From assembly GCA_022561385.1 (NCBI GenBank), contig JADFRG010000007.1:14498-78497 (forward strand): a DNA stretch of 64,000 nt, given 5' to 3'. Below the pieces are notes generated by a model. It saw nothing but the letters and a program-made list of their open reading frames with translations. It did no database searches and was not told where the DNA came from. The stretch comes from Chloroflexota bacterium (lineage in GTDB: Bacteria; Chloroflexota; Anaerolineae; Anaerolineales; E44-bin32). Made by a program: the position numbers and the translations under genes. Each line of letters begins with the position of its first letter. Within the stretch, counting starts at the first letter, position 1. This document shows, piece by piece, positions 26,718-56,173 of this stretch.

Positions 26718-27416
26718 CTAAGGTTGAGCTTGAAGCTTCAGAGCGCTGGGATCCATGATCCGGATCCGCTTACGTCCGATCTCCACCCAGCCGTGCGACT
26801 TGAATTCGTTGAGGGTCTGTGTGGCAGTTTCACGGTAGGTGCCCAGCATTTCGGCCAGATCCTGGTGTGTGTAGCCCTCAATTGTGTCACCGGATTGGCT
26901 GTCACTGGCTAGATCCTGCAGCAGCGCGGCCAGGCGGACAGGAATGCTCTTGAAAGCCAGATCTTCGAGCTTGGCCTCGGTTCTCCTCAGTCGGGCAGCC
27001 ATATTTTCAAGAAAGCGCAGGGCCACCTGAGGCTTCTCCTTGATAATGCGCTCAACATCCATGCGGCTCATCACGCAAAGTGTGCAATCCTCGACCGCCT
27101 CGGCGAACGTGTTATGCATCCCTTGTCCAATGAGGGACATCTCGCCGAAAATGGCGCCTTTCTCCAACACCGCGACAACCAGCTTCTTACCCTCCGGAGA
27201 GAGACGATAGAGCTGTACACGGCCCTGCTTCAAGAGAAAAAGCACTTCACCTGCTTCATCTGGCCCATAAAATACGCGACCAAGCTCACAGGTACTCATG
27301 GTTGTAGAACGGTCCATCTCCTCCATTTCCTGATCGGTCAGGTCTTGGAAGATTTCGATTTCGGATAGGGCTTGAAGTTTGGTAATCTCCATGGGGCTTC
27401 GGGTCTGTCGCGTCAC
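26718..27416 (-). CDS. Crp/Fnr family transcriptional regulator
   Basis: cNMP-binding beta-roll (GAIFGEMSL) plus a C-terminal HTH ([22 protein letters not shown]). Confidence 0.85.
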
Positions 27417-27649
27417 GATCCTTGAGTGGCGAGCCTTTCGAACAACTCCGCTTCGTTCGGATTCCCCAGAAACAATGTAACGCCGTCCAGCAAATAAGTC
27501 GGCACTGCAAAAACGCTATCGGGCGTTTCGCCGTTAAGTTCGATTAAGTTTACTTCCACCTGCGGCATACGTTCCCGGACCTGGTCGGCTATCTTTCGAG
27601 CCTGTTCACAGGTCTCGCAGCAGTCGTCGATGTAGATGTCGAGTCGCAT
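27413..27649 (-). CDS. Small thioredoxin/glutaredoxin-fold protein
   Basis: 78 aa with a CCETC (CxxC) motif near the N terminus and a VPTY cis-Pro-like motif. It overlaps the crp start by 4 nt. Confidence 0.65.
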
Positions 27650-27852
27650 TCCGCATCCTCGCTGCCTGAGTTCGGTTCAGGCTCTTTGATTCGGATTGAG
27701 CCTAATAGCGAGCCTAGCATAGCGAGTCGATGCGACCGGTAAGGCCAGTTACAGGCCTTGACCGCCGAAATCCGAAGATTGTTCCCCGATTATAACGAGC
27801 GGTTTACAATCTAAGATAAGGGTTTCATAATATAGAGTGGGTAGCCTCTGTA

Positions 27853-28473
27853 ATGCTTACGAGGCGCAGGATCACAGTTGTAATGAGGAGATGGATGGGA
27901 AACTACCGCTTGATCGCAACTGGGATGGCTGTCGGCTTGCTGGCTGCGGCCTGCCAGCCCGATCCCCAACCTGATACGCAGATTATTCCCGCACCGACGG
28001 ACGCCCCAGAACGGAAGCCTCCAACGGAGGCGCCCCTGGCTACGACGCAGAGCCAGCCGCAAGTATCAGCATCAGAACCCGTGGTCGCGGAAGGGGCCCA
28101 GACGCAAGTTCCCACATCGGAACCGTCGGCAGCACCGGTCACAGTGCGCCGCGATCTTGCGGCGACAGATCCGGCCACGGTTGACCTGGCGAATGGCACC
28201 CCCTCGCTAGTTGAGTTCTTCGCCTTCTGGTGACCGACCTGCCGAGCAATGGCGCCCGTCGTGCACGGGCTTGAAGCTAAGTACGCAGGCCGGATCAACT
28301 TTGTTTACCTGGATGTCGACGATCCCGACACCACTCCTTTCAAATCACAGCTCGGCTATCAGTACCAGCCGCACTTCTTCCTGCTCGATGGGGCCGGGAA
28401 CGTGCTGCAACAGTGGGTCGGGTTTGCCAGTGAGGGGGCGCTGGACGCCGCACTAGAATCGGTATCGGCATAA
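27853..28473 (+). CDS. Thioredoxin-fold lipoprotein, predicted selenoprotein (W-U-P-T-C; TGA 28231-28233 read as Sec)
   Basis: ORFs 27853-28233 and 28249-28473 share one frame and are separated only by TGA. The joined sequence reads ...SLVEFFAFW-U-PTCRAMAPVVHGLEAKYAGRINFVYLDVDD..., a Trx WCxxC context. Lipobox LLAAAC. The exact start is uncertain (27853, 27883 or 27895). Confidence 0.7.
28254..28270 (+). promoter_or_regulatory. Candidate bacterial SECIS hairpin for UGA 28231
   Basis: GCCCGT-CGTGC-ACGGGC (6 bp stem, 5 nt loop containing G) starts 21 nt after the UGA. No folding computation was run. Confidence 0.45.
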
Positions 28474-28708
28474 CCATCATCCAATAAACGCCTCGAAGGC
28501 ACCGCGGCCCTTCATCGGAGCCGCGGTTTCGCGTGTCTGGGGGGCCATATAATGCGCAGCGACTAAGTTGCGCTCAGGCTCGATGCCGGGGCTTGCAGGC
28601 ATAAAGGCCCATTGCAAGCGGTAAGGGACGCTCTAGACTATCCAAGGTGCCCCGAGAATGGGGTACAGAATACAAGGCGACGGACCGATCGGTACAGGGA
28701 GGGACAGG

Positions 28709-28981
28709 ATGAGCGACGACAAGACTAAACGTTTGAACCTGATGCGGTTTTGGCTATTTGGCACCTTTGTGATCTTGTGGGCAATTTCGCTGACCTATTA
28801 CTACATCAATCTAGCCCCAATCTCTGATGTGGGGACCGTCCTAAGGGCGGTTTGGCCCGTGTGGGCCACTGCGGCCGGGGGGGCGATAGTCATCTACGTC
28901 GGCTACAAGCGGTGGCTGGGGCGAAGCGATGGTGAAATGGGCTCCCCCGCGCCCGATCAGTCTTCGGCACCGCCTGCCTGA
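28709..28981 (+). CDS. Hypothetical small membrane protein
   Basis: ATG 28709 is preceded by GGGAGGGA. Two predicted TM helices. Confidence 0.4.
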   Translation: MSDDKTKRLNLMRFWLFGTFVILWAISLTYYYINLAPISDVGTVLRAVWPVWATAAGGAIVIYVGYKRWLGRSDGEMGSPAPDQSSAPPA

Positions 28982-38345: not shown

Positions 38346-38748
38346 GTTCGAATACGATTTCTTCTATATGCACGTCTACCCGAGTGACCTGCATACCCAC
38401 CATGTCCTCCAACGCACGTGCGACATCACGCTGGACTTTTCGGCTGACCTTGCGCACTTCGACCCCATAATCTAGCGCTAAATATAGATCCGCCGCCACG
38501 GAATTGTCGGCGAGTTCGATATAAACACCGTCGCCCGCCTCACGCTTGAACAGCCGACTCACCCCGCCCGGAATGGGCGCCAGGCCCGCTACGCCCGGAA
38601 CAGAGAGACTCGTGAGCTGAGCAATCCGAACCAGTACGCCAGGCGCAATCGTCGTGATTCCGGGCGCACGAGCTTCGTCCGGTTTACCTGCTGATTCTGC
38701 CACCTTAGATTTTGCCTTCGCCATTATCTGAAGGGTTGCCTCGCTCAA
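38335..38748 (-). CDS. Asp23/Gls24-family envelope stress protein
   Basis: ITTIAPGVLVRIAQLTSLSVPGV...V.V.V pattern. The gene is commonly found next to nusB. Confidence 0.8.
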   Translation of the reverse strand: MSEATLQIMAKAKSKVAESAGKPDEARAPGITTIAPGVLVRIAQLTSLSVPGVAGLAPIPGGVSRLFKREAGDGVYIELADNSVAADLYLALDYGVEVRKVSRKVQRDVARALEDMVGMQVTRVDVHIEEIVFEHEA

Positions 38749-39491
38749 TGCATTACGATCCCACCGTCCACAGCCAGAACGTGACCGGTGATATAGGCTG
38801 CGTCGTCGGAGGCCAGGAACGCCACTGCCTTAGCTACTTCTTCGGGCTGGCCGGAGCGTCCGAGCGGGATCATGCCCAATAGCCGCTCCTTTGCCTCTTC
38901 CGGGGTGTCTTCCCAGATTTCGGTGTCAATGTAGCCGGCGGCCACCGCATTTACGGTGATGTTGCGGGACGCCACTTCGCGGGCCAAGGCTTTGGTCAAA
39001 CCGATCTGACCCGCCTTTGAGGCAGAATAATTTGTCTGACCCGGATTGCCCATCTGGCCCGATATGGAGGCGATGTTGATAATCCTCCCGTAACGCTTCT
39101 TCATCATCAGGCGCACGGCGGCTTTGGAGCAGTTAAATGTGGCCTTGAGATTGGTCCGGATTACGTCGTCCCAGTCGGCTTCCTTCATCAACATGATAAA
39201 GCCATCGCGGATGATCCCCGCATTGTTGACCAGGATGTGTAGCCCGTCAAACTTCTCTACGGCGAACTTCACGAGCCCCTGGGCTTGCTGCATGTCGCCC
39301 ACGTCCGCCTGGTAGGCCAAGGCCTTGCCGCCGGACTTTTCGATGGCAGCCACCACCTCCTCGGCGCTGTCTGCGCGGGTGTGGTAATTCACAACGACGC
39401 TCGCCCCCTGGCTTCCAAGCTCAACTGCCACCGCCTTCCCGATTCCCCTGGAGGCCCCTGTGACGACGGCTACCTTGTCATCAAATCTCAT
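38745..39491 (-). CDS. fabG: 3-oxoacyl-[ACP] reductase (SDR) FabG
   Basis: VAVVTGASRGIG, NNAG, YSASKAG and a PGYIDT-like AAGYIDTE segment. ATG 39491 is chosen over the longer track start. Confidence 0.85.
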   Translation of the reverse strand: MRFDDKVAVVTGASRGIGKAVAVELGSQGASVVVNYHTRADSAEEVVAAIEKSGGKALAYQADVGDMQQAQGLVKFAVEKFDGLHILVNNAGIIRDGFIMLMKEADWDDVIRTNLKATFNCSKAAVRLMMKKRYGRIINIASISGQMGNPGQTNYSASKAGQIGLTKALAREVASRNITVNAVAAGYIDTEIWEDTPEEAKERLLGMIPLGRSGQPEEVAKAVAFLASDDAAYITGHVLAVDGGIVMH

Positions 39492-39810
39492 GAATTTCGA
39501 TCTCGCTTGGCTGAAAAAGAGCCGCACGCGTGCGGCTCGCTCATGTTTCGCTGTGGGAGCGGATTATACCTCCCGCGGGTTTTCCGTTGCCTGGCGAGCT
39601 TCCCCGGCCAAGAGGCCCGATTTCAAAATATCGCGCCGCGACCGGCAAGGCAAGCGCCTTACCCGATGGTCGTCGATAACCAGGAGCGGTTCAAAGTCCG
39701 ATCTTAGGGCTCTGGAGCGAGTGAGCGCTCGCGGGCGCGCGCCGGCTGGCGGAATCAAAGGGCCGGTCTCCTGTGTCTCAATTATCGGTGGAAATGCGGG
39801 TGGCCGCGAC

Positions 39811-40662
39811 TTACTCTTCCCCGAGCAGCCGATCGGCGATTGCGTTGAGCTCTTCGTCAGAATAGTAGTGGATGATCACCCGGCCGCCTCGCTTCGTCCG
39901 GTGCAGGTCCACTCTGGTTCCCAGGGCTCCTTCGAGCCGCTTGGCGAGGTCCATCAGCTGGGGATCGCCGGCTCCAGGCCTGGCCTTTGCACTCGGCGCG
40001 GGCTCCCGGCCCATTCGGCGAACGAGTTCCTCTGCTTGCCGCACGTTTAGATCCTGCGCAAGGATCACTTTCAATGCGGTTCCCTGTTGTTTGGCTTGAG
40101 GCAAGGCCAGCAAGGTTCGCGCGTGGCCCTCGGAGATCTTTCCCGCTTCCAGGGCCGTGCGCACGGCAGCCGATAGCCGAAGCAGTCGCAGCGAGTTTGT
40201 TACGCCGCTGCGGCTCTTCCCCAACCGAACCGCGACCTGCTCGTGAGTCAGTTTGAAATCCTCAATCAGCTGTCGAAAACCTTCCGCGGCCTCCAGCGGT
40301 TTCAGGTCGGAGCGCTGCAGGTTCTCGACCAGCGCCATCTCCAGGCTTGCTTGCGCACCCGCCTCCCGCACGACAACCGGAACTGCAGAAAGGCCCGCCC
40401 GCTTCGCGGCCAGCAAACGACGCTCGCCGGCAATCAACTGATATCCAATATCGGAGGCGACTACGAGCAGCGGCTGAAGGATGCCATGTTGCCGGATGGA
40501 TTGGGTCAAATCCTCCAGCTCACTCTCCGAGAACACCGAACGGGGCTGTCTCGGGTTTGGCTCGATAAGGTCGAGAGAGAGCTCAAGGACACCGGGGCGG
40601 ATTTCGGGACCGGCTGGTATAAGAGCCTCGAGGCCTTTGCCCAGTGCCTGCCTACGCGCCAT
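39811..40662 (-). CDS. parB: Chromosome partitioning protein ParB/Spo0J
   Basis: LGKGLEALIP, NPRQPR, LQPLLV and IAGERRLLAAKRAGL motifs. The internal ATG 40662 is chosen because it gives a short overlap with the parA stop. Confidence 0.85.
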   Translation of the reverse strand: MARRQALGKGLEALIPAGPEIRPGVLELSLDLIEPNPRQPRSVFSESELEDLTQSIRQHGILQPLLVVASDIGYQLIAGERRLLAAKRAGLSAVPVVVREAGAQASLEMALVENLQRSDLKPLEAAEGFRQLIEDFKLTHEQVAVRLGKSRSGVTNSLRLLRLSAAVRTALEAGKISEGHARTLLALPQAKQQGTALKVILAQDLNVRQAEELVRRMGREPAPSAKARPGAGDPQLMDLAKRLEGALGTRVDLHRTKRGGRVIIHYYSDEELNAIADRLLGEE

Positions 40663-41518
40663 GCGAAACTCCGCCGTGGTCCCCAAGCGCGGCTGATCTA
40701 GCATTTTTTGGGATCCCATCTTTGCTAACGCGAACCGCAGCCTTGGCCATCGGGACCCCATCCCTTTCTAGAATCTCCTCCGCGAATTCGCGATAGGCGA
40801 TCCCGCCGGGCGAATTCGGGGCATAGGAGGCGATAGGAATACCGTATGATGGCGCCTCCGCCAGCCGAACATTACGGGGGATCACTGTCTCAAATACGCT
40901 GTCCCCAAAGTGATCCCGCAGTTCATCCGCGACCTCCTTCGACAATCGAGTGCGGGAATCGTACATTGTCAGCAGTAGTCCGCGCACCGCCAGGGCCGGG
41001 AAGAGGCCGGATCGCAGCCTCTGCAAGGTTTGCATGAGTTGTGACAGTCCCTCCAGCGCAAGGTATTCGCATTGGACAGGGATGATAACGCCATTGGTTG
41101 CGGCCACCAGGCCATTCACGGTGAGCAGGCCAAGCGAGGGCGGGCAATCGATCAAGACATAGTCAAAATGTCCACCAAGCGGACTGAGCGCGCGCTGCAG
41201 GGCCCGCTCCCTGTCCGCCATGCCTACGATCTCGACCTGTGCTCCGGCCAGCGCGGGTGAGGAGGGCAGCAGCGTCAGCTTGAGATTGGGGCTGTGGAGC
41301 ACGCAGTCGGTGGCCGGGAGGCGGCCGATCAGAGCGTCATACGTCCCCGCCGTAACGCTTCCTGGTTCGATGCCCAGGCAGGAGGTGGCGTTGGCTTGTG
41401 GATCACAGTCGACAATGAGCACCTTCATCCCGCGACGTCCTAACTCAGCGCCCAGACTGATGGCGGTGGTGGTTTTGCCTACCCCACCTTTCTGATTGAC
41501 CAGGGTATAGGTCCGCAT
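40652..41518 (-). CDS. parA: Chromosome partitioning ATPase ParA/Soj
   Basis: Deviant Walker A NQKGGVGKTTT, DCDPQANAT, and DYVLIDCPPSLG. Confidence 0.9.
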   Translation of the reverse strand: MRTYTLVNQKGGVGKTTTAISLGAELGRRGMKVLIVDCDPQANATSCLGIEPGSVTAGTYDALIGRLPATDCVLHSPNLKLTLLPSSPALAGAQVEIVGMADRERALQRALSPLGGHFDYVLIDCPPSLGLLTVNGLVAATNGVIIPVQCEYLALEGLSQLMQTLQRLRSGLFPALAVRGLLLTMYDSRTRLSKEVADELRDHFGDSVFETVIPRNVRLAEAPSYGIPIASYAPNSPGGIAYREFAEEILERDGVPMAKAAVRVSKDGIPKNARSAALGDHGGVSHGA

Positions 41519-42390
41519 CAGGAGCCCTCTCGACGCAGCGCATCCTGAACCTCGTCCGGGGTAGGGGTGCCCGAAAGCCCCGACCGGCCCACGGAGGCGG
41601 TGGCCAGGCGAATAGCCGTCTCGGCCGCGAGCCAGGGATCTCCCAAGGAGGTGTAACGGCTAAAGAATACCGGGGCGAAGACATCTCCGGCTCCCGTCGC
41701 ATCCAGCTCGTTGGCGGGAGGAGCAGGCATCGATCTCACCTGACCATCCGCCCAAACACGAGCTCCGCCCGGCCCCTTAGTGAGGACCATCACGGAACAT
41801 TGGGTCGCCATATCTTCGGCGGCCTCCTCATCCATATTGAAATCCTCGATGCTGACTACGACCGCATCCGCCACCCGGATGAACTCGGAGGCCGCCTCCC
41901 ATGTCAGGGCGGAAATGCGCCCTGACGAATCCCATTCTCTCATGAGTCCCTGTGGGGTAAGTCCGATGAAGGAACTCTGAAATGAATCTAATATATCGCT
42001 GGAAAACTCGCCGATCAGGGGGGCGACATGGACCAGTCGTGCATTCATCCACTCGGGCGGGATGTCCTCCTGGACCAGGCTTACTGCCTGGGAAAAGATG
42101 GTTTGAATGCGGCCCTCAGGGGTGTAGATATTCTCGAACGAAGTCGACTCTGGGGAAGGTTTGACAACAAGAGTCAGATCGTCGAGCGGCCCAAGATCGA
42201 CTCGTTCCGATGCGGCGGTGATCAGGCCGACCGAGTGACCCAATACATGCGCGGTGAGCCCCGAATAACAGACCGTGCCCCCCAAGGTTATGCCGTCCGG
42301 GGTTCTGTCCTCTGACAAATGTCCGATGAGTAGATAATCAACCGCAGGAAGTGTTGGGGCTGGAGATTCGGATTGAGACGGGTTGCTCAA
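41518..42390 (-). CDS. PfkB-family (ribokinase-like) carbohydrate kinase
   Basis: The C-terminal DATGAGDVF motif and overall length fit PfkB kinases. The substrate is unknown. Confidence 0.65.
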   Translation of the reverse strand: MSNPSQSESPAPTLPAVDYLLIGHLSEDRTPDGITLGGTVCYSGLTAHVLGHSVGLITAASERVDLGPLDDLTLVVKPSPESTSFENIYTPEGRIQTIFSQAVSLVQEDIPPEWMNARLVHVAPLIGEFSSDILDSFQSSFIGLTPQGLMREWDSSGRISALTWEAASEFIRVADAVVVSIEDFNMDEEAAEDMATQCSVMVLTKGPGGARVWADGQVRSMPAPPANELDATGAGDVFAPVFFSRYTSLGDPWLAAETAIRLATASVGRSGLSGTPTPDEVQDALRREGS

Positions 42391-42393
42391 TCC

Positions 42394-43131
42394 TTAACCC
42401 TTGGGGATGACAGTAACTTTACGGTTTGAGCCCTCGCCCACGCTTTCCGTAGTAACGCTAGGATTGTCGCGCAGCTCGACGTGGATGATGCGCCTCTCGT
42501 TCGGCGGCATCGGCTCAAGCTCCATGGTCCGATCCAGATCGGAGGCTTGAGTGGCGATTTTCCGCGCCAGCTGGCGAAGCTGTTGTTCTCGCCTTGCGCG
42601 GTAGCCTTCAATATCGATGACAACTGCAACGGGTCGCTTCAGTTCCTTAGCCACAATCAGGCGCGTGATGTATTGGAGCGCGGTCAATGCTTCGCCCCTT
42701 CGGCCGATCAAGATTCCAAGGTCATCTCCATTTACATCTACCAGCAATGGCTGGATCCGGGCATCCGGATCTTTGGGCCCCCACTTGGCACTTACCTGAG
42801 CTTCCAGTCCCAATCTCTCTACCAGCTCGGCCACCGTGTCGTGGGCGGCCTGAACGGCCTCCGGATCATCATCCGTCGCGGATTCCGTCGCAGGGATCGG
42901 AGCGCCATCCTTTAATGCGGCCTCTTTTTTTGGAGCGGGAACGTCGCCAGCAGGCGCAACCGTCAGCCGCACGCGGACCTGACGAGCTGAGATACCCAGG
43001 AAGCCTCTGCTCCCCTCGTCCAGTACCTCCACCTGCAGGTCGTCTTCGCGGAGGCCCAATTCGGCCGCGCCGCGCGTGACCGCCTCTTCAACCGTGGGTG
43101 CAATCACCTCCAGGCTCGGCTTTTTCTCCAC
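42394..43131 (-). CDS. Jag/KhpB RNA-binding protein (Jag_N, KH and R3H domains)
   Basis: KH region IGRRGEALTALQYI, R3H region LEPMPPNERRIIHVEL. It lies directly downstream of yidC. Confidence 0.8.
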   Translation of the reverse strand: MEKKPSLEVIAPTVEEAVTRGAAELGLREDDLQVEVLDEGSRGFLGISARQVRVRLTVAPAGDVPAPKKEAALKDGAPIPATESATDDDPEAVQAAHDTVAELVERLGLEAQVSAKWGPKDPDARIQPLLVDVNGDDLGILIGRRGEALTALQYITRLIVAKELKRPVAVVIDIEGYRARREQQLRQLARKIATQASDLDRTMELEPMPPNERRIIHVELRDNPSVTTESVGEGSNRKVTVIPKG

Positions 43132-44024
43132 TAGGATCCTTTCCCCCTGGCCTGCTTGCCCGGTGGATTTTTCTTTCCCTTCGCTTTTCCGTCAGACTTG
43201 CCTTTCAAGTGGGCCCGGCCGCTGCCTTCGGATTTCTTGGGCTTCGGACTGGGCTCCGATCGGAAGCGTTTCATGAGAAGGGCCTGACCGATCGCCAAAA
43301 CGTTGCTGACTACGAAATAGAGTGCGAGCCCGGCGGCCAGAGTATAGGCAAACCAACCCAGGAGAAGCGGCATGTAGATGCCCATCATCTGGGTCATTCC
43401 TGCCCCTTGAGCCCCAGGTTGTGGCGGAGTGGTTAGTTTGGTTTGTAGATAGGAAGTGATGATGACGATTACGGCCAGGACAGGAAGTCCATCCCCTACA
43501 ACCGGCAACCCTTCCAGAGCCGGAATTGCAAATCGTTCTGGCTGGCCCAGGTCCATCCATAGAAATTGACTGTTAAGTGGAATGATCGTGGACGAGACGC
43601 TGGTGTATATATGCTTGGAGAATTCCAGCAAAGGCGTAGGGGAGTCGGCCAGCGAGCGAATGATGGCTCCATAGAGTCCGAAGATAACTGGAAGCTGGAT
43701 GATGGTGGGTACACATCCGGCAAAGGGGTTGATCCCCAGCTTCTTATAGAGCTTCATCTGCTCTTCTTGAAGCTTTTGTCGATCTCCCTTGTACTTCTCC
43801 TGGATCTTGATGTACTCCTTGTCTTTCTGGAGTTCCTGCATCTTTTGCGTGCTCTGCTGTTGCTTGTAGGTGAGAGGCAGAGTGATCACGCGGATCAAGA
43901 TCGTGAACACGATAATCGCCAGCCCGAATGCTCCCGCCAGACCCAGCGTAGGACCCAGAAAGTCATAGATGTAAAGGAGGGCATTGATCATCGGATTCAG
44001 GATCAAAGAGTCCCAGATATTCAA
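43131..44024 (-). CDS. yidC: Membrane protein insertase YidC (short, Gram-positive-type) with a Lys-rich tail
   Basis: FGLAIIVFTILIRVITLPLT...GINPFAGCVPTIIQLPVIFGLY motifs. Basic C terminus. Confidence 0.9.
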   Translation of the reverse strand: MNIWDSLILNPMINALLYIYDFLGPTLGLAGAFGLAIIVFTILIRVITLPLTYKQQQSTQKMQELQKDKEYIKIQEKYKGDRQKLQEEQMKLYKKLGINPFAGCVPTIIQLPVIFGLYGAIIRSLADSPTPLLEFSKHIYTSVSSTIIPLNSQFLWMDLGQPERFAIPALEGLPVVGDGLPVLAVIVIITSYLQTKLTTPPQPGAQGAGMTQMMGIYMPLLLGWFAYTLAAGLALYFVVSNVLAIGQALLMKRFRSEPSPKPKKSEGSGRAHLKGKSDGKAKGKKNPPGKQARGKGS

Positions 44025-44048
44025 CTTAAGCTCCTCATGTCCACGATC

Positions 44049-45173
44049 TCAACTAGATCGGCAGCGCTTTTCGCTGCCGCCCGGAGTGAATGACCACAGC
44101 TCGGTGCCGTTCTCGATATCAAAGGCACATAGCAGCGGCTCGCCCCCGTTGGTCGCCACAATGACCGCATCTCCCACCAACAGCGGATCGGTCTGTAATT
44201 CTCCGTCGAGGGGCACGTTCCAGAGTTCTCGGTTGGTCGAAATTTCTCGCGCAATTAGCGTACCCGACTCGGCCGCCACAAAGATCCGATCCTCGCTGAG
44301 AGCAGGCGAGGCGGATATCCTGCCGGGCAAGGTCACATTCCAGATTTCAGCACCGTTGCTTACTTTCACAGCGTGCAGCTGACCCGCCAAGTCGCCGAAG
44401 TACGCCACCCCATCTCCGACAACCGGGCTGCCCCAGATCCAGTCTCCGGCGTTGAAGACCCATGCCACCCGGCCTCGAGCATTGTCGAGCGCGATAAGTT
44501 CCTGACCCAAAGTGCCCGCCAATAACAGGTTATCCGCCAGAACCGGTGAATCCGCAATGGCTCCGCCGCGGTCGCGGTCCGCTATCCATAGTTGACGCCC
44601 CTGAAATAGATCGATGGCGTAAACATTGTGATCCATGGAAGTTAAGAAGACCCGCTCGCCCTCCACCACCGGCGCGGACCAGATAGGATGTTCGAGCGGC
44701 TCATCAAACTCGGGCGGGAAGGCCCAGACCGCTGAACCATCCGAAGTGTCACGCGCGTACAGCCGTCCGTCTCCCGAGGGTACCAGCAACAGGTTGCCCG
44801 CGACGGTAGGTCCACCCACAATCCGTCCGCCACCCTTCCCCAGCTGAATGGGTCCCCACTCGACGGCCCCATTAGAAGTCTTCAGTGCAACAATTTCGTT
44901 TGCGAAATCGCCCACGTAAAGCGTGCCGTGCTCTGAAACGGCAGGCGGGGCGTAAAATGTTCGGCCACTCTCGGGCTCTTCGGGGTAAGACCAGCGCAGG
45001 TCCCCATTGTTTGCATTGACGGCATATACGGCCTGGTCGTACGCCAGGTAGACCGTCTCCCCATCCGAACTCAGTCCCGGCCAACTCGACGCGGTGCGAA
45101 ATCCAGCGCCCGCACATGCGCTGAGCAGGAAGGTGCCGACGATCGAGAGCGGAACGGCTAGCTTCGGATGCAT
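44049..45173 (-). CDS. PQQ-like beta-propeller repeat lipoprotein (BamB-like fold)
   Basis: ATG 45173 gives the signal peptide MHPKLAVPLSIVGTFLLSAC. Repeated ...G.l.A.d...G...W... blades are present. Confidence 0.75.
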   Translation of the reverse strand: MHPKLAVPLSIVGTFLLSACAGAGFRTASSWPGLSSDGETVYLAYDQAVYAVNANNGDLRWSYPEEPESGRTFYAPPAVSEHGTLYVGDFANEIVALKTSNGAVEWGPIQLGKGGGRIVGGPTVAGNLLLVPSGDGRLYARDTSDGSAVWAFPPEFDEPLEHPIWSAPVVEGERVFLTSMDHNVYAIDLFQGRQLWIADRDRGGAIADSPVLADNLLLAGTLGQELIALDNARGRVAWVFNAGDWIWGSPVVGDGVAYFGDLAGQLHAVKVSNGAEIWNVTLPGRISASPALSEDRIFVAAESGTLIAREISTNRELWNVPLDGELQTDPLLVGDAVIVATNGGEPLLCAFDIENGTELWSFTPGGSEKRCRSS

Positions 45174-45175
45174 GC

Positions 45176-45517
45176 CTAGGGTACGGGGTCGTAACCGCCT
45201 TCGCTGAAGGGTTGGCAGCGGGCGACCCGCCAAACGGCCAGGCCAGACCCTTTGACCAAGCCGTGCTTGGCGATCGCCTGGTAGCCGTAGTGCGAACAGG
45301 TGGGGTAGAACCGGCAGGTCCCTGCCGGCAGGATCTTAGAGAATGTCAATTGGTACAGGCGGATGAGGCCCAAACCTGCCAGTCGGGGCAAATTTGAAGC
45401 CGTTATCGGAATATCACGTAGCGCGGGTTCGTTCTCGTGATAATGTTCTTGCTCGATGGCGCGTTCCTCCATCGGGTGGTTGTGTTCTAAGATGGCATCG
45501 TTTCGCGCTGCAGTCAT
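45176..45517 (-). CDS. yidD: Membrane protein insertion efficiency factor YidD (with N-terminal extension)
   Basis: LIRLYQLTFSKILPAGTCRFYPTCSHYGYQAIAKHG...RCQPFSEGGYDPVP. Confidence 0.85.
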   Translation of the reverse strand: MTAARNDAILEHNHPMEERAIEQEHYHENEPALRDIPITASNLPRLAGLGLIRLYQLTFSKILPAGTCRFYPTCSHYGYQAIAKHGLVKGSGLAVWRVARCQPFSEGGYDPVP

Positions 45518-45522
45518 CTTGA

Positions 45523-45852
45523 TTATCCAATCGCCCCAGCCTTCTTTAGCAGATCGTTCATTGCCTCAACCAGCTCTGACCATGGGGCCTCATCGAGTCC
45601 GGGCCGGGCCACAAGGATCAAGTCCCATCCGGCGGCCAATTCAAATTCCTGAAATGCCGCCCGCATGCGACGCTTAGCTCGATTCCGCCTGACCGCGTTT
45701 CCAATGGCTCGGCTGGCTGTGACCCCAAGACGAGCGTACTCGTTGATCGACGGGCTGGCAATCAATAAAACAAGCGGGTGGGCATAGGATTTCCCAGTGC
45801 GCCGCACCCGCCTGAATTCCGTCGTGCTGGTGAGCCTATTCTTAAGTTTCAT
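45523..45852 (-). CDS. rnpA: Ribonuclease P protein component
   Basis: 109 aa and basic, with the RLGVTASRAIGNAVRRNRAKRRMR (RNR) motif. It lies downstream of rpmH. Confidence 0.85.
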   Translation of the reverse strand: MKLKNRLTSTTEFRRVRRTGKSYAHPLVLLIASPSINEYARLGVTASRAIGNAVRRNRAKRRMRAAFQEFELAAGWDLILVARPGLDEAPWSELVEAMNDLLKKAGAIG

Positions 45853-45892
45853 TCGAGGTCATGGAATGGATCGCTGACCTCGCATTGGCTCC

Positions 45893-46069
45893 TCAGGCGT
45901 TCCAGTTAACCTTCTTAACGTGCTGGTTCTTCCGCACCGCCAGCCGGTAGCGGCCTCTCAACCGGCGACGACGTAGAACTGCCCGGCCACCCCGGGTGGA
46001 CATCCGAGCCCGGAACCCGTGGACTCGCGCCCTTCGCCGGATCTTTGGCTGATAGGTTCGTTTTGGCAT
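45893..46069 (-). CDS. rpmH: 50S ribosomal protein L34
   Basis: Not in the ORF track (58 aa). The minus strand translates to [45 protein letters not shown]..., the L34 signature. Confidence 0.85.
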
Positions 46070-46130
46070 AGCTTAATCGGCCTTTCTACTGCCGAGGGCG
46101 GATTATACCGCAGGCGCCCCTCAGAGTCAG

Positions 46131-47417
46131 CTATTCGGGCATTCTCTCGATCTTCGCCCCCAATCGCCGCAGTTTTTCATCTATGCCCTCGTAGCCGCGT
46201 TCAATTTGACCGATGTTGTGAATAATGGAAGTTCCCTTGGCGGCTAATGCCGCCAGGACGAGCGCCATTCCGGCGCGAATATCGGGGCTCTCCAAAACTT
46301 CGCCGATGAGCTGAACCGGCCCCTCCACGATGCAGCGGTGCGGGTCGCATAGGATGATCCTGGCGCCCATGGAGACGAGCTTGTCGACGAAGAACATGCG
46401 GCTGGGATACATCCAATCGTGAATCAGGACCGAACCTTCCGCTTGAGAGGCCACAACTATAGCGAGGCTAACCAGATCGGTCGGGAAGGCCGGCCAGGGC
46501 TGAGCCGTAATCTGGGGGACAAAGCCGCCCAGGTCGGGGGTGATCTCGAGCCGATTGCGGCTCTCGATGACGATATCTTCTCCATCTTCGACCCAATCGA
46601 CTCCGAGGCGTTTGAACACGAGACGGATCATACCCAGGTACTTGGCGCCGGCGTTGACGATACGCATACTGCCACCCGTCAGCGCGCCGGCGGCAATGAA
46701 GCTCACGACTTCCAGATAATCTGGCCCGATGGTGTGTTCGCCACCGTGTAATTCTTTTACGCCCTCAATATGCAGCGTGTTGGAGCCAAGGCCTTCAATA
46801 TGGGCGCCGAGAGTTCTTAGGAAGAGGCACAACTCCTGGACATGGGGTTCGGAGGCTGCGTTTCGAATTACCGAGGCGCCATCGGCGCAGACGGCGGCCA
46901 TGATGGCGTTTTCCGTGGCCGTGACGCTGGCCTCGTCGAGCAAGACGTCGGCTCCCCGCAGGCCGGCCTTCGCCCGCATATGGTATTGCCGATCGTTGTG
47001 CTCCACCTCAACGCCGAAGGCCTGCAGCGCCAAGAAATGGGTATCGATTCGGCGGCGACCGATAATATCGCCTCCCGGTGGAGGCAGGTCGATGGCTCCA
47101 AATCGGCTCAACATTGGGCCGGCCAGCAGTATCGAAGCCCGGATGCGGCGACATAATTCCGGATCCAGCTGGCCTCGCTTGGCGCCCTGAGAACGCAGCC
47201 TCAGGGTCGATCCATCCGAAGATTCTGCTTCTACGCCCATGCTCGTGAGCAGCTGGAGCATCGTGGCCACATCGCCTATTTGGGGAACATTGTGCAATGT
47301 GACCTCGCCGGTTGCCATTAGACTGGCAGTCATCAGGGGAAGCGCGGCGTTTTTGTTGCCAGAAGGGAAGACCTCTCCGTTTAGCGGATGGCCTCCCTCA
47401 ATTCGGAAAGATGGCAT
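46131..47417 (-). CDS. murA: UDP-N-acetylglucosamine 1-carboxyvinyltransferase
   Basis: 428 aa, starting F.I.GG..L.G.V..SGNKNAALPLM. The fold repeats and length fit MurA. Confidence 0.9.
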   Translation of the reverse strand: MPSFRIEGGHPLNGEVFPSGNKNAALPLMTASLMATGEVTLHNVPQIGDVATMLQLLTSMGVEAESSDGSTLRLRSQGAKRGQLDPELCRRIRASILLAGPMLSRFGAIDLPPPGGDIIGRRRIDTHFLALQAFGVEVEHNDRQYHMRAKAGLRGADVLLDEASVTATENAIMAAVCADGASVIRNAASEPHVQELCLFLRTLGAHIEGLGSNTLHIEGVKELHGGEHTIGPDYLEVVSFIAAGALTGGSMRIVNAGAKYLGMIRLVFKRLGVDWVEDGEDIVIESRNRLEITPDLGGFVPQITAQPWPAFPTDLVSLAIVVASQAEGSVLIHDWMYPSRMFFVDKLVSMGARIILCDPHRCIVEGPVQLIGEVLESPDIRAGMALVLAALAAKGTSIIHNIGQIERGYEGIDEKLRRLGAKIERMPE

Positions 47418-47419
47418 AG

Positions 47420-48274
47420 TTATCCTTTAATGAGCAATTGAACCTGCTGACCCAGCTTCAGCTTGAGTGTCTGTGCCGCAGAGCCGCGGTTTACGCCGAT
47501 TTCAAGAAGGCCGCTGCTTCCAATATAAGCAAGCCCTTCCCCCTCGGCGACATCATCGAAAGTACGGACGAGAGGGAGCTCGTCGCCACCGGGTAGCCCG
47601 GCAGCCAGATCTTGAGCGGCAAGGAAGGACTCCGGCTCCTGACCCAGCCATGGGGCCAGGCGTATCTGGCTCCCCTCCGGGTGTAATATGCCGATGCTGG
47701 TAATTAAATTTCCGAACGGGTCCTGATGGACGACCTCCCCCTCCACCACCTCTGAACTTACGGATTCCAGACGCGGGACCGGCAGCAGAATTTCCAATTC
47801 TACCGGTGGGCCCAGGTCGTTCAGGGCCGTCCCCGATGCCAGCTGCGCTGCGGCCGGCGCGAAGATGTCTCTGCCGTGAAAGGTGCTGCTGACCTGAGGG
47901 TCCCAGAGTTCAATCACTTCTGGCGTTCCGTCGCGTGAGACCAGGTAGCTGAAAAATCCATTGTCGGGGCCGACGCAGATTTGCGTGTCCCACTTCGCGG
48001 CCACCCCCCGTCGCGCAGATCCGACACCGGGATCCACGACGCACAAGTAAATCGTGTTCGGCGGCAGGTAGGGAGAGGCTTGCCAGAGCATAAACGCGGC
48101 CGCCTGGATGTCACCGCGCGGGACATCATGTGAGATATCGATCAGATTGGCACGGGGGGCGAGGGTGCTGAGGACTCCCTTGAGAACGCCAACATAGATG
48201 CCTTGTGTGCCAAAGTCCGTGAGAAGTGCAATCGAAGATCTTGCCACGAGCAGAGCGAATTCTAACGGACCCAC
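47420..48274 (-). CDS. SAM hydrolase / SAM hydroxide adenosyltransferase family protein (DUF62)
   Basis: LLTDFG, VVDPGVGS, GPDNG, FHGRDIFAP and D.FGNL motifs of the fluorinase-like DUF62 family. Confidence 0.8.
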   Translation of the reverse strand: MGPLEFALLVARSSIALLTDFGTQGIYVGVLKGVLSTLAPRANLIDISHDVPRGDIQAAAFMLWQASPYLPPNTIYLCVVDPGVGSARRGVAAKWDTQICVGPDNGFFSYLVSRDGTPEVIELWDPQVSSTFHGRDIFAPAAAQLASGTALNDLGPPVELEILLPVPRLESVSSEVVEGEVVHQDPFGNLITSIGILHPEGSQIRLAPWLGQEPESFLAAQDLAAGLPGGDELPLVRTFDDVAEGEGLAYIGSSGLLEIGVNRGSAAQTLKLKLGQQVQLLIKG

Positions 48275-48385
48275 GGAGAGGGGTCAACTTGGGAGCCGTC
48301 CCTTATCAGGCTCGATATTGCTTGACATAATCGAGAGCCCAGGGGAGGAAGCCTGAGAAGAACTTAGAAGGCGCAAGGCATAGGC

Positions 48386-49414
48386 TTGCCATCATTCAGA
48401 CCCCTATATGTCAGGGAACTAGGGTTCAAAGGCACTCCAAATTTGGCCCCGGCACCCTCGCATGGTAGAATCAGTTTTGTGGCTGAATCGAAGCCCATTG
48501 GCGTATTTTCTTCTCTGACCGCTGGCTTCGATCAGGTTGCTTCTCGCCCGTTTTTGTTTATCCCTCCCCTGGTTCTGGACTTATTCCTATGGCTCGGACC
48601 GCACCTGGGGATAGCGCGTTTTGTCGAATCATTGGCACAGCCGGCGCTCCAAACCGAGGGATTGGTGGCGGAACAAGCCTCGCTGATCGGGCAGGTGGTC
48701 GAAGATGTCGGAGAGAGTTTCAATTTACTTTCTGCGCTGAGTACGATTCCTATTGGCATCCCAAGCCTTATGGCGGGCAGGATGCCGCTCGAGTCCCCGC
48801 TGGGGCTGGTCAATCGGGTCGAAGTAGTCGAACCGGCTCGAGTGTTATTGATATGGATCGCTCTTTCCGGCATCGGGCTAGCCCTGGGTGCGTATTATCA
48901 GTACTGGATTGCCGCAGCCGTGGCGCCGGATGCGGAATTAGGGCCCGGATGGATGGCGGCGCTGCGGATGGTGGGGTTTGGCTTTCTTGTGTTTGTGGGG
49001 GGGTTGGTCGCCGGATTCATGGTGCTGATCGCAATCGCCTTGGCGACACTGGTCCTTCCTCTGCTGGGCACCGGCGTATTCTTCCTTGGATTCGCGCTGC
49101 TGTTCTGGCTCGCGGTCTACTTAGTTTTCACGCCGCACGGGATTATCCGATACAACCAGGGTGTGGTCCGCGCCATGTTTGAAAGTTTTATCCTGGTACG
49201 CTGGAACCTGTTGTCCACTGTCGGCTACCTGGGGGTGGCCTTCGGCTCCTACTGGCTTTTGAATTACGTCTGGGATTTGCCAAGCACTACTTCCTGGTTT
49301 TCAATACTGGCGCTCGTGGGACATGCCTTCGTAGCCACGACGTTATTGGCTGGCAGCTACGCATATTATCAGGGCAGGCGAGAATGGTTAGCGGCTGCTA
49401 GACGAGCCGCTTGA
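48386..49414 (+). CDS. Hypothetical polytopic membrane protein
   Basis: Long ORF with about 6 TM helices. No family was recognised and the start is uncertain. Confidence 0.45.
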   Translation: MPSFRPLYVRELGFKGTPNLAPAPSHGRISFVAESKPIGVFSSLTAGFDQVASRPFLFIPPLVLDLFLWLGPHLGIARFVESLAQPALQTEGLVAEQASLIGQVVEDVGESFNLLSALSTIPIGIPSLMAGRMPLESPLGLVNRVEVVEPARVLLIWIALSGIGLALGAYYQYWIAAAVAPDAELGPGWMAALRMVGFGFLVFVGGLVAGFMVLIAIALATLVLPLLGTGVFFLGFALLFWLAVYLVFTPHGIIRYNQGVVRAMFESFILVRWNLLSTVGYLGVAFGSYWLLNYVWDLPSTTSWFSILALVGHAFVATTLLAGSYAYYQGRREWLAAARRAA

Positions 49415-49445
49415 AGTTTGGTTGGCCCACAAGGAGAATAGATAG

Positions 49446-51596
<2,151 letters not shown>

Positions 51597-56072: not shown

Positions 56073-56101
56073 TTGACAGACAGATGGGCCTACCCTATTA
56101 T
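56073..56101 (+). promoter_or_regulatory. Near-consensus sigma-70-type promoter for the mer cluster (TTGACA-17 nt-TATTAT)
   Basis: TTGACA at 56073-56078, a 17-nt spacer, and TATTAT at 56096-56101, about 70 nt upstream of merA ATG 56174. Confidence 0.55.
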
Positions 56102-56117: not shown

Positions 56118-56173
56118 GGGATGTAAGAAGATCGGAAGTCCCTGCATCCAAAAACATGGAAGTTGAGGAGAAT

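What the first reader, a model, noticed from the sequence alone, without database searches (positions are those of the whole stretch)
27853..28473. Exported thioredoxin lipoprotein with a W-U-P-T-C active site, far from the metal island
ORFs 27853-28233 and 28249-28473 share a frame and are separated only by TGA 28231-28233. The joined sequence is LVEFFAFW-U-PTCRAMAPVVHGLEAKYAGRINFVYLDVDD, a textbook thioredoxin WCxxC neighbourhood with Sec at the attacking position. A hairpin (GCCCGT-CGTGC-ACGGGC) begins 21 nt downstream.

This is a third independent TGA-on-catalytic-Cys event in 64 kb, which argues that the organism genuinely decodes UGA as Sec and that these are not three pseudogenes. The gene is divergent from a small Grx/Trx-fold gene and a Crp/Fnr regulator, which suggests redox-linked regulation.
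Basis: partly seen in the sequence, partly recalled or inferred. Interest (0 to 1): 0.65.

Follow-up and report, generated by a model that had tools for sequence, protein, structure and literature searches.

The report
Selenocysteine thioredoxin lipoprotein of Anaerolineales
The two ORFs are one real gene for a membrane-anchored, exported thioredoxin whose catalytic cysteine is replaced by selenocysteine, read through a UGA codon with the help of a conserved RNA hairpin; it is a solid but unsurprising new example of a known class of bacterial selenoproteins, mis-annotated as a truncated hypothetical protein in public databases.

Summary
Confirmed. ORFs 27853-28233 and 28249-28473 are one gene (true start 27883 or 27895) split only by TGA 28231-28233. 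Read through, it encodes a lipoprotein signal peptide, a long linker and a minimal thioredoxin domain with active site W-U-P-T-C. The same TGA occurs in 52 of 80 species-representative Anaerolineales/Chloroflexota genomes; 24 carry TGT/TGC there. Downstream codons evolve under purifying selection, as upstream ones do. The hairpin 28254-28270 is intact in 49/53 Sec forms but 1/24 Cys forms, has a compensatory G-C/A-U pair with no mismatch, and freezes synonymous sites only in Sec forms, so it behaves as a bacterial SECIS. TGA is otherwise the commonest stop codon here, so the code is not reassigned. A second in-window candidate (flavoprotein, TGA 61789) is also conserved in orthologues. selA/B/C/D were not found in the window and could not be checked genome-wide; literature shows them in Anaerolinea. 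Across the family the gene usually lies beside csoR-copZ-copA and a TlpA-like redoxin, hinting at envelope thiol/copper defence, but co-regulation is not shown. Sec-thioredoxins are long known, so this is a new member of a known kind.

The parts
27883..28473 (+). Complete selenoprotein gene: prolipoprotein with a thioredoxin domain. Alternative start ATG 27895. In-frame Sec-TGA at 28231-28233. True stop TAA 28471-28473.
   Evidence: Translation through the TGA. Pfam Thioredoxin match spans the TGA. Start codon inferred from orthologue footprinting: L001/L002 have only the 27883-equivalent ATG and L005/L006 only the 27895-equivalent. NCBI and other sources call only the 112-aa N-terminal fragment ending ...FFAFW.
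27883..27954 (+). Signal peptide with lipobox (MRRWMGNYRLIATGMAVGLLAAA-C). The lipidated Cys codon is TGC 27952-27954.
   Evidence: Positively charged n-region, hydrophobic core and L-A-A-A-C, read directly. The Cys is nearly invariant in family alignment A1. A lipobox-like motif is present in 71/80 relatives.
27955..28155 (+). Pro/Thr/Glu/Ala-rich linker between the lipid anchor and the folded domain; low complexity and variable in length.
   Evidence: Poorly aligned and length-variable in A1. The lipobox-Cys to Sec/Cys distance has a median of 88 residues, range 57-213. The equivalent region of Cys homologue P0004 has no secondary structure and lower pLDDT, 64-84.
28156..28470 (+). Minimal thioredoxin fold (beta-alpha-beta-alpha-beta-beta-alpha) carrying W-U-P-T-C, the buried Glu of LVEFF and the cis-Pro motif Q-P-H (28366-28374).
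   Evidence: Pfam PF00085. Best PDB sequence hits are classical thioredoxins, e.g. 6zom at E = 3.4e-13. AF2 model of homologue P0004 has pLDDT 95-98 in the domain and is closest to classical thioredoxins, target TM-score about 0.7-0.86. The His of QPH is conserved in 80/81 sequences.
28231..28233 (+). UGA codon read as selenocysteine, at the position of the N-terminal (nucleophilic) Cys of CxxC.
   Evidence: TGA in 52 of 80 GTDB species loci and TGT/TGC in 24 at the same column. Also TGA in L001-L004 and L120. Full-length database homologues read FFAFWCPTC.
28240..28242 (+). TGC codon of the resolving Cys of the U-P-T-C motif.
   Evidence: Read directly. C116 is invariant in A1.
28254..28270 (+). 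SECIS-type hairpin: stem 28254-28259 / 28265-28270 and apical loop CGUGC 28260-28264. The loop starts 26 nt after the UGA.
   Evidence: The 5-bp core stem is intact in 49/53 Sec forms and 1/24 Cys forms. Pair +27/+35 is 41 G-C plus 12 A-U with no mismatch. 98.5% of cells are paired against 2-59% in slid registers, and 0/500 shuffles reach the covariation score. RNAalifold recovers the same hairpin. Synonymous-site entropy is 0-0.6 bits in Sec forms and 1.2-2.0 in Cys forms. MFE is -9.8 against -4.2 kcal/mol.
27650..27882 (.). Divergent intergenic/promoter region shared with the 78-aa gene. Predicted -35 at 27803-27808 and -10 at 27826-27831 on the + strand. Several blocks are conserved across orthologues.
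   Evidence: Promoter-like sites. Conserved blocks among window/L004/L001/L002/L005/L006. Function not shown.
27413..27649 (-). Divergent neighbour: 78-aa cytoplasmic MJ0307-like thioredoxin-fold protein with C-CETC. A lineage-restricted companion, not an obligate part.
   Evidence: Pfam Thioredoxin_3 at 23.2 bits and NCBIfam TIGR00411 at 28.8 bits, both below cutoff. Present next to the gene in 14/56 Sec and 2/24 Cys loci. CxxC invariant in 15 orthologues.
26718..27416 (-). Crp-family regulator (cNMP-binding domain plus HTH_Crp_2) co-oriented with the 78-aa gene. A possible lineage-specific regulator.
   Evidence: Pfam E = 7e-18 and 9e-18. Near the gene in 16/56 Sec and 3/24 Cys loci. C43 and C111-x-x-C114 conserved in 15/16 orthologues. 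Regulation of the Sec gene not shown.

Best explanation
The locus is a single, functional gene for an extracytoplasmic thioredoxin-fold selenolipoprotein.

1. Translation starts at ATG 27883 or 27895.
2. At UGA 28231, the hairpin 20 nt downstream (28254-28270) acts as a bacterial SECIS. It recruits SelB carrying Sec-tRNA(Sec), so selenocysteine is inserted instead of terminating, and translation continues for 79 more codons.
3. The product has a Sec-translocon/lipoprotein signal peptide (lipobox Cys at 27952-27954), a linker of about 70 residues with no predicted structure, and a minimal classical-type thioredoxin domain.
4. After export, lipidation and signal-peptide cleavage, the domain is tethered on the outer face of the cytoplasmic membrane.
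5. There the selenolate of U in W-U-P-T-C attacks a substrate disulfide (or binds a thiophilic metal), and the Cys three residues on resolves the selenenylsulfide.

What is shown:
- One gene and one domain spanning the TGA.
- TGA/Cys alternation at the catalytic position.
- Purifying selection downstream of the TGA.
- A TGA-specific conserved hairpin with covariation.
- Lipobox, thioredoxin fold, buried Glu and cis-Pro.

What is inferred:
- SelB/tRNA-Sec dependence and actual selenium content.
- Membrane topology.
- The direction of electron flow. A reductase/isomerase is judged more likely than an oxidase.
- The physiological substrate. Family-wide adjacency to csoR-copZ-copA, a TlpA-like redoxin and lgt makes envelope thiol protection or copper handling the leading guess.
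For: - **One gene.** The Pfam thioredoxin match spans the TGA. Five database fragments from different organisms all end at ...EFFAFW.
- **Recoding rather than decay.** TGA with an open 79-codon continuation occurs in L001, L002 and L004. Synonymous:nonsynonymous codon changes are 18:7 downstream and 18:4 upstream for window vs L001, mostly at third positions.
- **Breadth.** TGA in 52/80 species-representative genomes, Cys codons in 24.
- **SECIS.**, with figures given under 'parts'. The nearest Cys relative, L006, keeps a fossil hairpin, as Zhang et al. 2006 (PMC1794560) describe for Sec-to-Cys conversions.
- **No code change.** TGA terminates 16 of 39 confident genes in the window, 9 of them followed by C as here.
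- **No internal restart.** The window's ATG 28249 is ATG in only 23/53 Sec forms.
- **Sec capacity.** A second Sec gene in the window is conserved with TGA in orthologues of 71-74% identity. Anaerolinea thermophila is SelD+/SelA+/SelB+ with 4 selenoproteins in Peng et al. 2016 Table S1 (PMC5029168).
- **Lipoprotein and fold.**
- **Context.** csoR-copZ-copA lie downstream in 35/80 loci (19/24 Cys, 15/56 Sec). A TlpA-like redoxin lies upstream in 17 loci and Lgt in 14.
Against: - No tRNA-Sec, selA, selB or selD was found in the window or in 868 kb of related loci. The rest of this genome could not be searched.
- There is no direct evidence of selenium incorporation.
- The hairpin is small (5-6 bp) and unremarkable on a single sequence.
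- Covariation rests on essentially one variable pair. The tests are not phylogenetically corrected and the tree is a crude NJ tree.
- The copper link is weak. The CsoR-operator palindromes lie between the thioredoxin gene and csoR, not upstream of it. The synteny block also holds unrelated genes (folE, folB, HPF). The window's own copy has no cop neighbours.
- No CcdA/DsbD-type reductant is encoded nearby.
Confidence: 0.88

Rival explanations
1. Pseudogene: a nonsense mutation has inactivated an ordinary Cys-thioredoxin lipoprotein gene, and the downstream ORF is decaying.
For: Public annotation treats the N-terminal piece as a 112-aa hypothetical protein. A single TGC-to-TGA change would be enough.
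Against: The same TGA recurs in 56 loci, including 52 species representatives. The downstream frame stays open and shows coding-type substitution patterns. No frameshifts or extra stops appear in any of them. A TGA-specific hairpin is conserved.
Confidence: 0.01
2. Two separate products: translation ends at TGA, and the C-terminal 74 residues are made independently from ATG 28249 (termination-reinitiation or a split thioredoxin).
For: In the window an ATG lies 5 codons after the TGA, and gene callers predict a 70-74 aa ORF there.
Against: That codon is ATG in only 23/53 Sec forms; the rest have CTG, TTG, ATH or TTA. Only 4/53 have any SD-preceded in-frame start nearby. The split would cut between the two active-site residues of one compact fold. 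Cys forms are single polypeptides.
Confidence: 0.02
3. Read-through without selenium: UGA is decoded by a near-cognate or suppressor tRNA (Trp, Cys or Arg), or Cys is inserted by the Sec machinery, so the protein is not a true selenoprotein.
For: No sel genes or tRNA-Sec could be located for this genome. One pipeline even translated the TGA as Trp.
Against: TGA is the commonest normal stop in the window, so generic suppression would be harmful. TGA alternates specifically with Cys codons at a catalytic Cys and is coupled to a local hairpin at SECIS distance, which is the standard signature of Sec. Sec machinery and selenoproteins are documented in Anaerolinea and Caldilinea. Another TGA/Cys gene lies in the same window. 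The 'Trp' is an annotation artefact, because the DNA has TGA.
Confidence: 0.05
4. Functional rival: the protein is mainly a copper (or other thiophilic-metal) binding or handling protein that uses a (Se)Cys-Cys-His site, rather than a disulfide oxidoreductase. It would act on the outer membrane face alongside CopA/CopZ.
For: csoR-copZ-copA lie immediately downstream on the same strand in 35/80 loci, including 19/24 Cys forms. The His next to the cis-Pro is conserved in 80/81 U/CxxC forms and absent from the SxxS subgroup. Thioredoxin-fold copper proteins exist: Sco with CxxxC plus His, and CopG with CxCC (PMC7558416). Selenolate binds soft metals strongly (general chemistry).
Against: The CsoR operators lie downstream of the thioredoxin gene, so copper-dependent expression is not indicated. 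The motif is CxxC, not the CxxxC of Sco or the CxCC of CopG. The fold search returns classical thioredoxins and no Sco-type structure in the top 50. The buried Glu and cis-Pro typical of redox-active thioredoxins are retained. The window's copy is not next to any cop gene.
Confidence: 0.25

Closest known systems
Sec-containing thioredoxins and thiol:disulfide oxidoreductases of bacteria (Zhang et al. 2006, PMC1794560: Trx, thiol:disulfide interchange protein, DsbA-like, Prx-like families)
   Same: Thioredoxin fold. UGA at the N-terminal Cys of CxxC. Cys-containing homologues. SECIS hairpin just downstream. Remnant SECIS in Cys forms derived from Sec forms.
   Different: This is a separate sequence family confined, as far as seen, to Anaerolineales/Chloroflexota. 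It is a lipoprotein with a long linker, and Sec forms outnumber Cys forms among the relatives retrieved (52 vs 24). That sample is biased towards the query.
NCBIfam NF041057, Rcas_1661 family thioredoxin-like (seleno)lipoprotein
   Same: Same design as named by its curators: a lipoprotein carrying a thioredoxin-like domain that can contain Sec.
   Different: Not a member: 20.2 bits against a cutoff of 190, matching only profile positions 4-107 of 247. 33 Cys-form relatives hit only generic models.
Classical cytoplasmic thioredoxin (TrxA; TIGR01068, PF00085)
   Same: Best sequence and structure matches. W-C-x-x-C at the helix N-terminus, buried acidic residue (E in LVEFF aligned with D in LIDFW), and cis-Pro.
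   Different: Below the TrxA equivalog cutoff (45.7 vs 96.8 bits). Exported and lipid-anchored. The dipeptide is P-T rather than G-P. Sec replaces Cys. His follows the cis-Pro.
Membrane-tethered extracytoplasmic reductants CcmG/DsbE, ResA and TlpA, and the pneumococcal thioredoxin lipoproteins Etrx1/2 (the last, and E. coli DsbE's W-C-P-T-C motif, from my own knowledge)
   Same: A thioredoxin-fold domain held on the outer face of the cytoplasmic membrane. The C-P-T-C dipeptide equals that of E. coli DsbE. TlpA acts in copper-centre assembly (PMC7558416).
   Different: Scores far below the DsbE, ResA and TlpA cutoffs (29 vs 123, 17 vs 170, 19 vs 230 bits). It lacks their extra insert, and no such structure appears among the top 50 fold matches, which are classical thioredoxins. 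No CcdA/DsbD or cytochrome c maturation genes lie nearby.
Thioredoxin-fold copper proteins Sco and CopG (PMC7558416)
   Same: Extracytoplasmic, thioredoxin-like, with Cys (plus His) near the active site, and genetic linkage to copper export genes.
   Different: CxxC rather than the CxxxC of Sco or the CxCC of CopG. No Sco-type structure appears among the top 50 fold matches. Copper binding is untested.

Membership tests
Bacterial selenoprotein gene (SelB/SECIS-dependent UGA recoding) | In-frame UGA at a position occupied by Cys in homologues | tested here: met
   TGA in 52 and TGT/TGC in 24 of 80 species loci at the same column. Database homologues read FFAFWCPTC.
Bacterial selenoprotein gene (SelB/SECIS-dependent UGA recoding) | Coding sequence under purifying selection continues past the UGA | tested here: met
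   79 open codons in all complete orthologues. Synonymous:nonsynonymous is 18:7 downstream and 18:4 upstream. The domain is conserved in 56 loci.
Bacterial selenoprotein gene (SelB/SECIS-dependent UGA recoding) | Stem-loop immediately downstream of the UGA with G in the apical loop. [quoted passage not shown] | tested here: met
   Hairpin 28254-28270, loop CGUGC starting 26 nt after the UGA. Covariation, Sec-specific conservation and stability are shown. SelB binding itself was not tested.
Bacterial selenoprotein gene (SelB/SECIS-dependent UGA recoding) | selA, selB, selC (tRNA-Sec) and selD present in the same genome | not testable with these tools
   None were found in the 64-kb window or in 868 kb of related loci, and whole genomes could not be fetched. 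At class level, Anaerolinea thermophila and Caldilinea aerophila are SelD+/SelA+/SelB+ (PMC5029168 Table S1).
Bacterial selenoprotein gene (SelB/SECIS-dependent UGA recoding) | Selenium actually incorporated into the protein | not testable with these tools
   This needs 75Se labelling or mass spectrometry.
Thioredoxin fold / Pfam PF00085 | Profile match above the gathering score, CxxC at the N-terminus of helix 1, and a cis-Pro loop | tested here: met
   46 bits against 23.5, with Cys substituted for Sec. In the AF2 model of homologue P0004, CxxC occupies residues 101-104 at the start of helix 102-118. Pro of QPH is invariant. Top fold matches are thioredoxins.
Canonical thioredoxin TrxA (NCBIfam TIGR01068 equivalog) | Score at or above the curated cutoff of 96.8 bits | tested here: not met
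   45.7 bits. The best E-value among 33 relatives is 1.7e-14, and the one member shown in full, P0004, scores 45.8 bits.
NF041057 Rcas_1661 family thioredoxin-like (seleno)lipoprotein | Score at or above the curated cutoff of 190 bits | tested here: not met
   20.2 bits, partial match to profile positions 4-107 of 247. It is absent from the family-wide hit list.
DsbE/CcmG (TIGR00385), ResA (NF002854) and TlpA (NF047696) | Score at or above the curated cutoffs of 123, 170 and 230 bits | tested here: not met
   29.1, 17.3 and 18.8 bits. No such structure appears among the top 50 fold-search matches, which are classical thioredoxins.
Bacterial lipoprotein | Signal peptide ending in a lipobox [LVI][ASTVI][GAS]-C | tested here: met
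   ...GMAVGLLAAA-C in the window. The Cys is nearly invariant in A1 and A3. The motif is present in 71/80 relatives. Processing by Lgt/Lsp is not testable here. lgt lies nearby in 14 related loci.
Sco-type copper chaperone | CxxxC motif plus a distal His on a beta-hairpin loop | tested here: not met
   The motif is U/CxxC. No Sco structure appears among the top 50 fold matches. A conserved His exists, but at the cis-Pro loop.

The most novel reading that the evidence does not exclude
This may be a lipid-anchored, Sec-translocon-exported selenoprotein that works in the cell envelope of Chloroflexota as part of copper defence. It would use a selenocysteine-cysteine-histidine site either to undo copper-catalysed disulfide damage or to capture and hand over Cu(I) exported by CopA. 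The Anaerolineales family would then be ancestrally tied to csoR-copZ-copA, a TlpA-like redoxin and lgt. That would link selenium use to extracytoplasmic copper homeostasis, which the copper review I consulted (PMC7558416) does not describe.
Probability: 0.2. Interest if true: 0.6.

Novelty: new member of a known kind. Interest (0 to 1): 0.4.

Why it matters
It corrects a systematic annotation error. In dozens of Anaerolineales genomes and metagenomes this gene is recorded as a truncated 'hypothetical protein' plus an orphan ORF, or even translated with the wrong genetic code.

It adds a well-supported selenoprotein family, with its SECIS, to a phylum whose selenoproteome is little described.

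It shows that Sec rather than Cys is the commoner state among the relatives sampled, with at least two apparent reversions to Cys. That makes the family a useful natural experiment on why Sec is kept.

The recurrent placement next to copper-efflux genes gives a testable lead on what extracytoplasmic selenothiol chemistry is used for.

Tried and rejected
- **Single-sequence folding** of the hairpin region gave z = 0.39, which is uninformative.
- **Rfam gathering scan and ARAGORN** found only tRNA-Lys in the window. ARAGORN found no tRNA at all in 868 kb of related loci.
- **tblastn with E. coli SelD and SelA** sequences recalled from memory, used as probes only, gave no hits in the window or loci.
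- **Pfam scan of about 40 window ORFs** found no sel genes.
A genuine Cys homologue of 59% identity (P0004) was modelled instead.
- **The 'FWWPTC' Trp variant (P0003)** turned out to be an artefact. The DNA has TGA and the source pipeline translated it as Trp.
- **CsoR control of the thioredoxin gene** was tested and not supported. The operator-like palindromes lie between its stop codon and csoR.
- **A nearby CcdA/DsbD reductant** was found only in 2 loci and not in the window.
- **Membership** in TrxA, DsbE, ResA, TlpA and the Rcas_1661 selenolipoprotein family was tested and failed on curated cutoffs.
- **The redoxin candidate at 60269** was recovered only from 98%-identical strains, so there is no comparative test for it.
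Full report
**Observation.** An ORF ending in TGA at 28231-28233 is followed in the same frame by an open stretch to TAA 28471-28473. The joined translation is ...GTPSLVEFFAFW-[TGA]-PTCRAMAPVVHGLEAKYAGRINFVYLDVDDP.... With Cys placed at the TGA, Pfam Thioredoxin matches residues 101-187 across the stop (E = 5.9e-12, above the gathering score), so the two ORFs are pieces of one domain. The hairpin GCCCGU-CGUGC-ACGGGC lies at 28254-28270. Folded on its own, this region is no more stable than shuffled sequence (z = 0.39), so the case had to be made comparatively.

**Recoding, not decay.** A protein search returned five fragments of 106-116 aa from different organisms, and all of them end exactly at ...EFFAFW. 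One is the NCBI entry 'hypothetical protein IIA51_03770 [Chloroflexi bacterium]', which is identical to the window. Full-length homologues read FFAFWCPTC.

The DNA of four fragment-bearing contigs has TGA at the same codon. In the three that extend far enough, 79 further open codons encode the rest of the fold. Between the window and L001 there are 18 synonymous and 7 nonsynonymous codon differences downstream of the TGA, against 18 and 4 in the 40 codons upstream, and most fall at third positions.

A scan of one genome per GTDB species returned 80 loci. All come from Anaerolineales/Chloroflexota MAGs except one contig binned as Methanosarcinales. Of these, 52 have TGA at this codon, 24 have TGT/TGC, one has GAT, and three were not matched by my motif.

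TGA is also the commonest ordinary stop codon in the window. It ends 16 of 39 confident genes, and 9 of those are followed by C, as here. The genetic code is therefore not reassigned, and a local signal is required.

The ATG five codons after the TGA is not a conserved restart. It is ATG in only 23 of 53 Sec forms.

**The hairpin behaves as a SECIS.** In 53 non-identical TGA forms, the 5-bp core stem (+23..+27 with +35..+39, counting from the T of TGA) is fully paired in 49. In the 24 Cys forms it is fully paired in one, L006, which is the Cys form closest to the Sec clade and so looks like a fossil SECIS. Zhang et al. 2006 describe such remnants.

- **Compensatory pair.** Pair +27/+35 is G-C in 41 sequences and A-U in 12, with no mismatch. 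The A-U state couples a Val-to-Ile change to a synonymous His change.
- **Synonymous sites.** Between +23 and +38 their entropy is 0-0.6 bits in Sec forms and 1.2-2.0 bits in Cys forms.
- **Pair-count controls.** 98.5% of cells are paired, against 2-59% in slid registers, and 0 of 500 shuffles reach the observed covariation score.
- **Independent prediction.** RNAalifold finds the same hairpin.
- **Stability.** Mean folding energy of +20..+43 is -9.8 kcal/mol in Sec forms and -4.2 in Cys forms. A control segment does not differ.

Caveats: only one pair really covaries. The statistics are not corrected for phylogeny. The 12 A-U sequences fall at three places on a crude NJ tree, which suggests but does not prove repeated events.

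**Selenium machinery.** No tRNA-Sec, selA, selB or selD was found in the window or in 868 kb of related loci, and the tools could not fetch whole genomes. Indirect support is as follows.

- The flavoprotein candidate at 61789 (GGT-U-VNEGC-IPTK) keeps TGA in orthologues of 71-74% identity, with both flanks conserved. Distant homologues have Cys there, and L097 shows a compensatory change in its first downstream hairpin.
- The redoxin candidate at 60269 has a strong hairpin, but it was recovered only from near-identical strains.
- Peng et al. 2016 list Anaerolinea thermophila and Caldilinea aerophila as SelD+/SelA+/SelB+, with 4 and 3 selenoproteins.

**The protein.** Orthologue footprinting places the start at ATG 27883 (the only start in L001/L002) or ATG 27895 (the only one in L005/L006).

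The N-terminus is a lipoprotein signal peptide...GMAVGLLAAA-C. The Cys is nearly invariant in the family, and a lipobox is found in 71 of 80 relatives. A Pro/Thr/Glu-rich linker of variable length follows.

An AlphaFold model of the 59%-identical Cys homologue P0004 shows a signal helix, a linker with no predicted secondary structure, and a beta-alpha-beta-alpha-beta-beta-alpha domain at pLDDT 95-98, with CxxC at the start of helix 1. Its nearest solved structures are classical thioredoxins, and no CcmG/ResA/TlpA, Sco or DsbA structure appears in the top 50.

The Glu of LVEFF aligns with the buried Asp of thioredoxin. The cis-Pro is invariant, and the His after it (QPH) is conserved in 80 of 81 U/CxxC forms. 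It is replaced in a database subgroup that has SxxS instead of CxxC.

**Context.** In the window, and in its closest relatives, the gene is divergent from a 78-aa MJ0307-like thioredoxin-fold gene and a Crp-family regulator. That pair accompanies only about 16 of 56 Sec loci and 2-3 of 24 Cys loci. The regulator lacks an N-terminal Fnr-type cluster but has a conserved CxxC.

Across the family, the commoner arrangement and probably the older one is the gene followed on the same strand by a CsoR-family repressor, an HMA chaperone and an HMA-bearing P-type ATPase. This is seen in 35 of 80 loci: 19 of 24 Cys forms and 15 of 56 Sec forms. A TlpA-like membrane redoxin lies divergently upstream in 17 loci, and Lgt beyond it in 14.

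CsoR-operator-like palindromes occur in 22 of these 35 loci and in none of the 46 others. In 21 of the 22 they lie between the thioredoxin stop codon and csoR. The link to copper is therefore conserved adjacency, not shown co-regulation. No CcdA/DsbD gene is nearby.

**What it is like, and whether it is new.** Sec-containing thioredoxins, thiol:disulfide interchange proteins and DsbA-like proteins have been catalogued since 2005-2006 (PMC1794560). NCBIfam curates a 'thioredoxin-like (seleno)lipoprotein' family (NF041057). UxxC thioredoxin-like proteins truncated in databases are a recognised pattern (Haft preprint).

The present protein fails the curated cutoffs of NF041057, TrxA, DsbE, ResA and TlpA. 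33 Cys-form relatives hit only generic models. It is best described as a new, uncurated member family of a known kind.

Points of mild interest are the predominance of Sec over Cys among the sampled species, the apparent Sec-to-Cys reversions (L006, L049), the extracytoplasmic lipid-anchored location, and the copper-operon neighbourhood.

**Verdict.** The gene is a genuine selenocysteine-containing thioredoxin lipoprotein with its SECIS (confidence about 0.9). Its exact substrate and any copper role remain hypotheses.

Noticed in passing
window 61630-63042 (+), TGA at 61789-61791: Pyridine-nucleotide disulfide oxidoreductase (Pyr_redox_2 plus dimerisation domain, E = 4e-59) with TGA at the first Cys of the redox-active GGT-C-VNxG-C motif. 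TGA is conserved in orthologues of 71-74% identity (L091-L094, L097). Homologues of 35-37% identity have Cys. L097 has a compensatory change in the downstream hairpin (GGGG/CCCC to GGGC/GCCC). The gene lies next to a MerA-like HMA-flavoprotein (55883-57838).
   Followed up: partly
window 59942-60580 (+), TGA at 60269-60271: Membrane-anchored Redoxin/AhpC-TSA (TlpA-like) protein with FFAFVG-U-PSC. A strong 8-bp hairpin starts about 11 nt after the TGA. It was recovered only from 98%-identical strains, so no comparative test was possible.
   Followed up: partly
window 27650-27882: The 233-nt divergent intergenic region holds blocks that are invariant across six orthologues: GCGAGCCTAGCAyAGCGA, GTAAGGCCAsTTACAGGCC, CGATTATAACsAGC and TAAGATAAGGGTTwCATAATATAGAGT. 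These look more conserved than synonymous sites of the flanking genes. They are candidate operator sites or a leader RNA. There was no Rfam match.
   Followed up: partly
window 27413-27649 (-): The 78-aa MJ0307-like thioredoxin-fold protein has an extra Cys directly before its CxxC (DD-C-CETC). The CxxC is invariant in 15 orthologues, and the extra Cys is present only in the five closest. Cys-overloaded CxxC motifs are rare in thioredoxin-like proteins according to the Haft 2022 preprint.
   Followed up: partly
L120:279-881 (protein P0003): A JGI gene call gives FW-W-PTC at the Sec position, but the DNA has TGA. The pipeline evidently translated this short contig with a TGA=Trp code. The artefact hides selenoproteins and could mislead genetic-code inference.
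   Followed up: yes
L013 (JAIWHF010000090.1): A contig assigned to a 'Methanosarcinales archaeon' MAG carries the same gene. Over the segment compared around the active site it matches the sequences from Anaerolineales MAGs (L009, L014, L017, L020), which suggests a binning error.
   Followed up: no
L057:6124 and proteins P0107, P0115, P0116, P0118: Redox-dead relatives exist. L057 has FW-D-GT-S but still sits in front of csoR-copZ-copA. A database subgroup has FW-S-PE-S and LPPVFF in place of QPH, which implies a role that does not need the dithiol.
   Followed up: no
loci L033-L084 (35 of 80), about +280 to +530 nt from the Sec/Cys codon: GC-rich palindromes of the CsoR-operator type (TACCCC...GGGGTA) lie between the thioredoxin gene and csoR in 21 of the 35 cop-linked loci. 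A further match, in L057, lies at -788 upstream. There are none in the 46 unlinked loci. They look like Chloroflexota CsoR operators.
   Followed up: partly
window 38745-51596: The window includes parB, parA, jag, yidC and gyrB. This is a typical origin-proximal gene set, so the locus probably lies near the replication origin.
   Followed up: no
window 28658-28981 (+): The small ORF downstream of the gene (90-107 aa, with hydrophobic stretches by eye) has no Pfam or NCBIfam match. It is conserved next to the gene in 12 Sec loci and 2 Cys loci.
   Followed up: no
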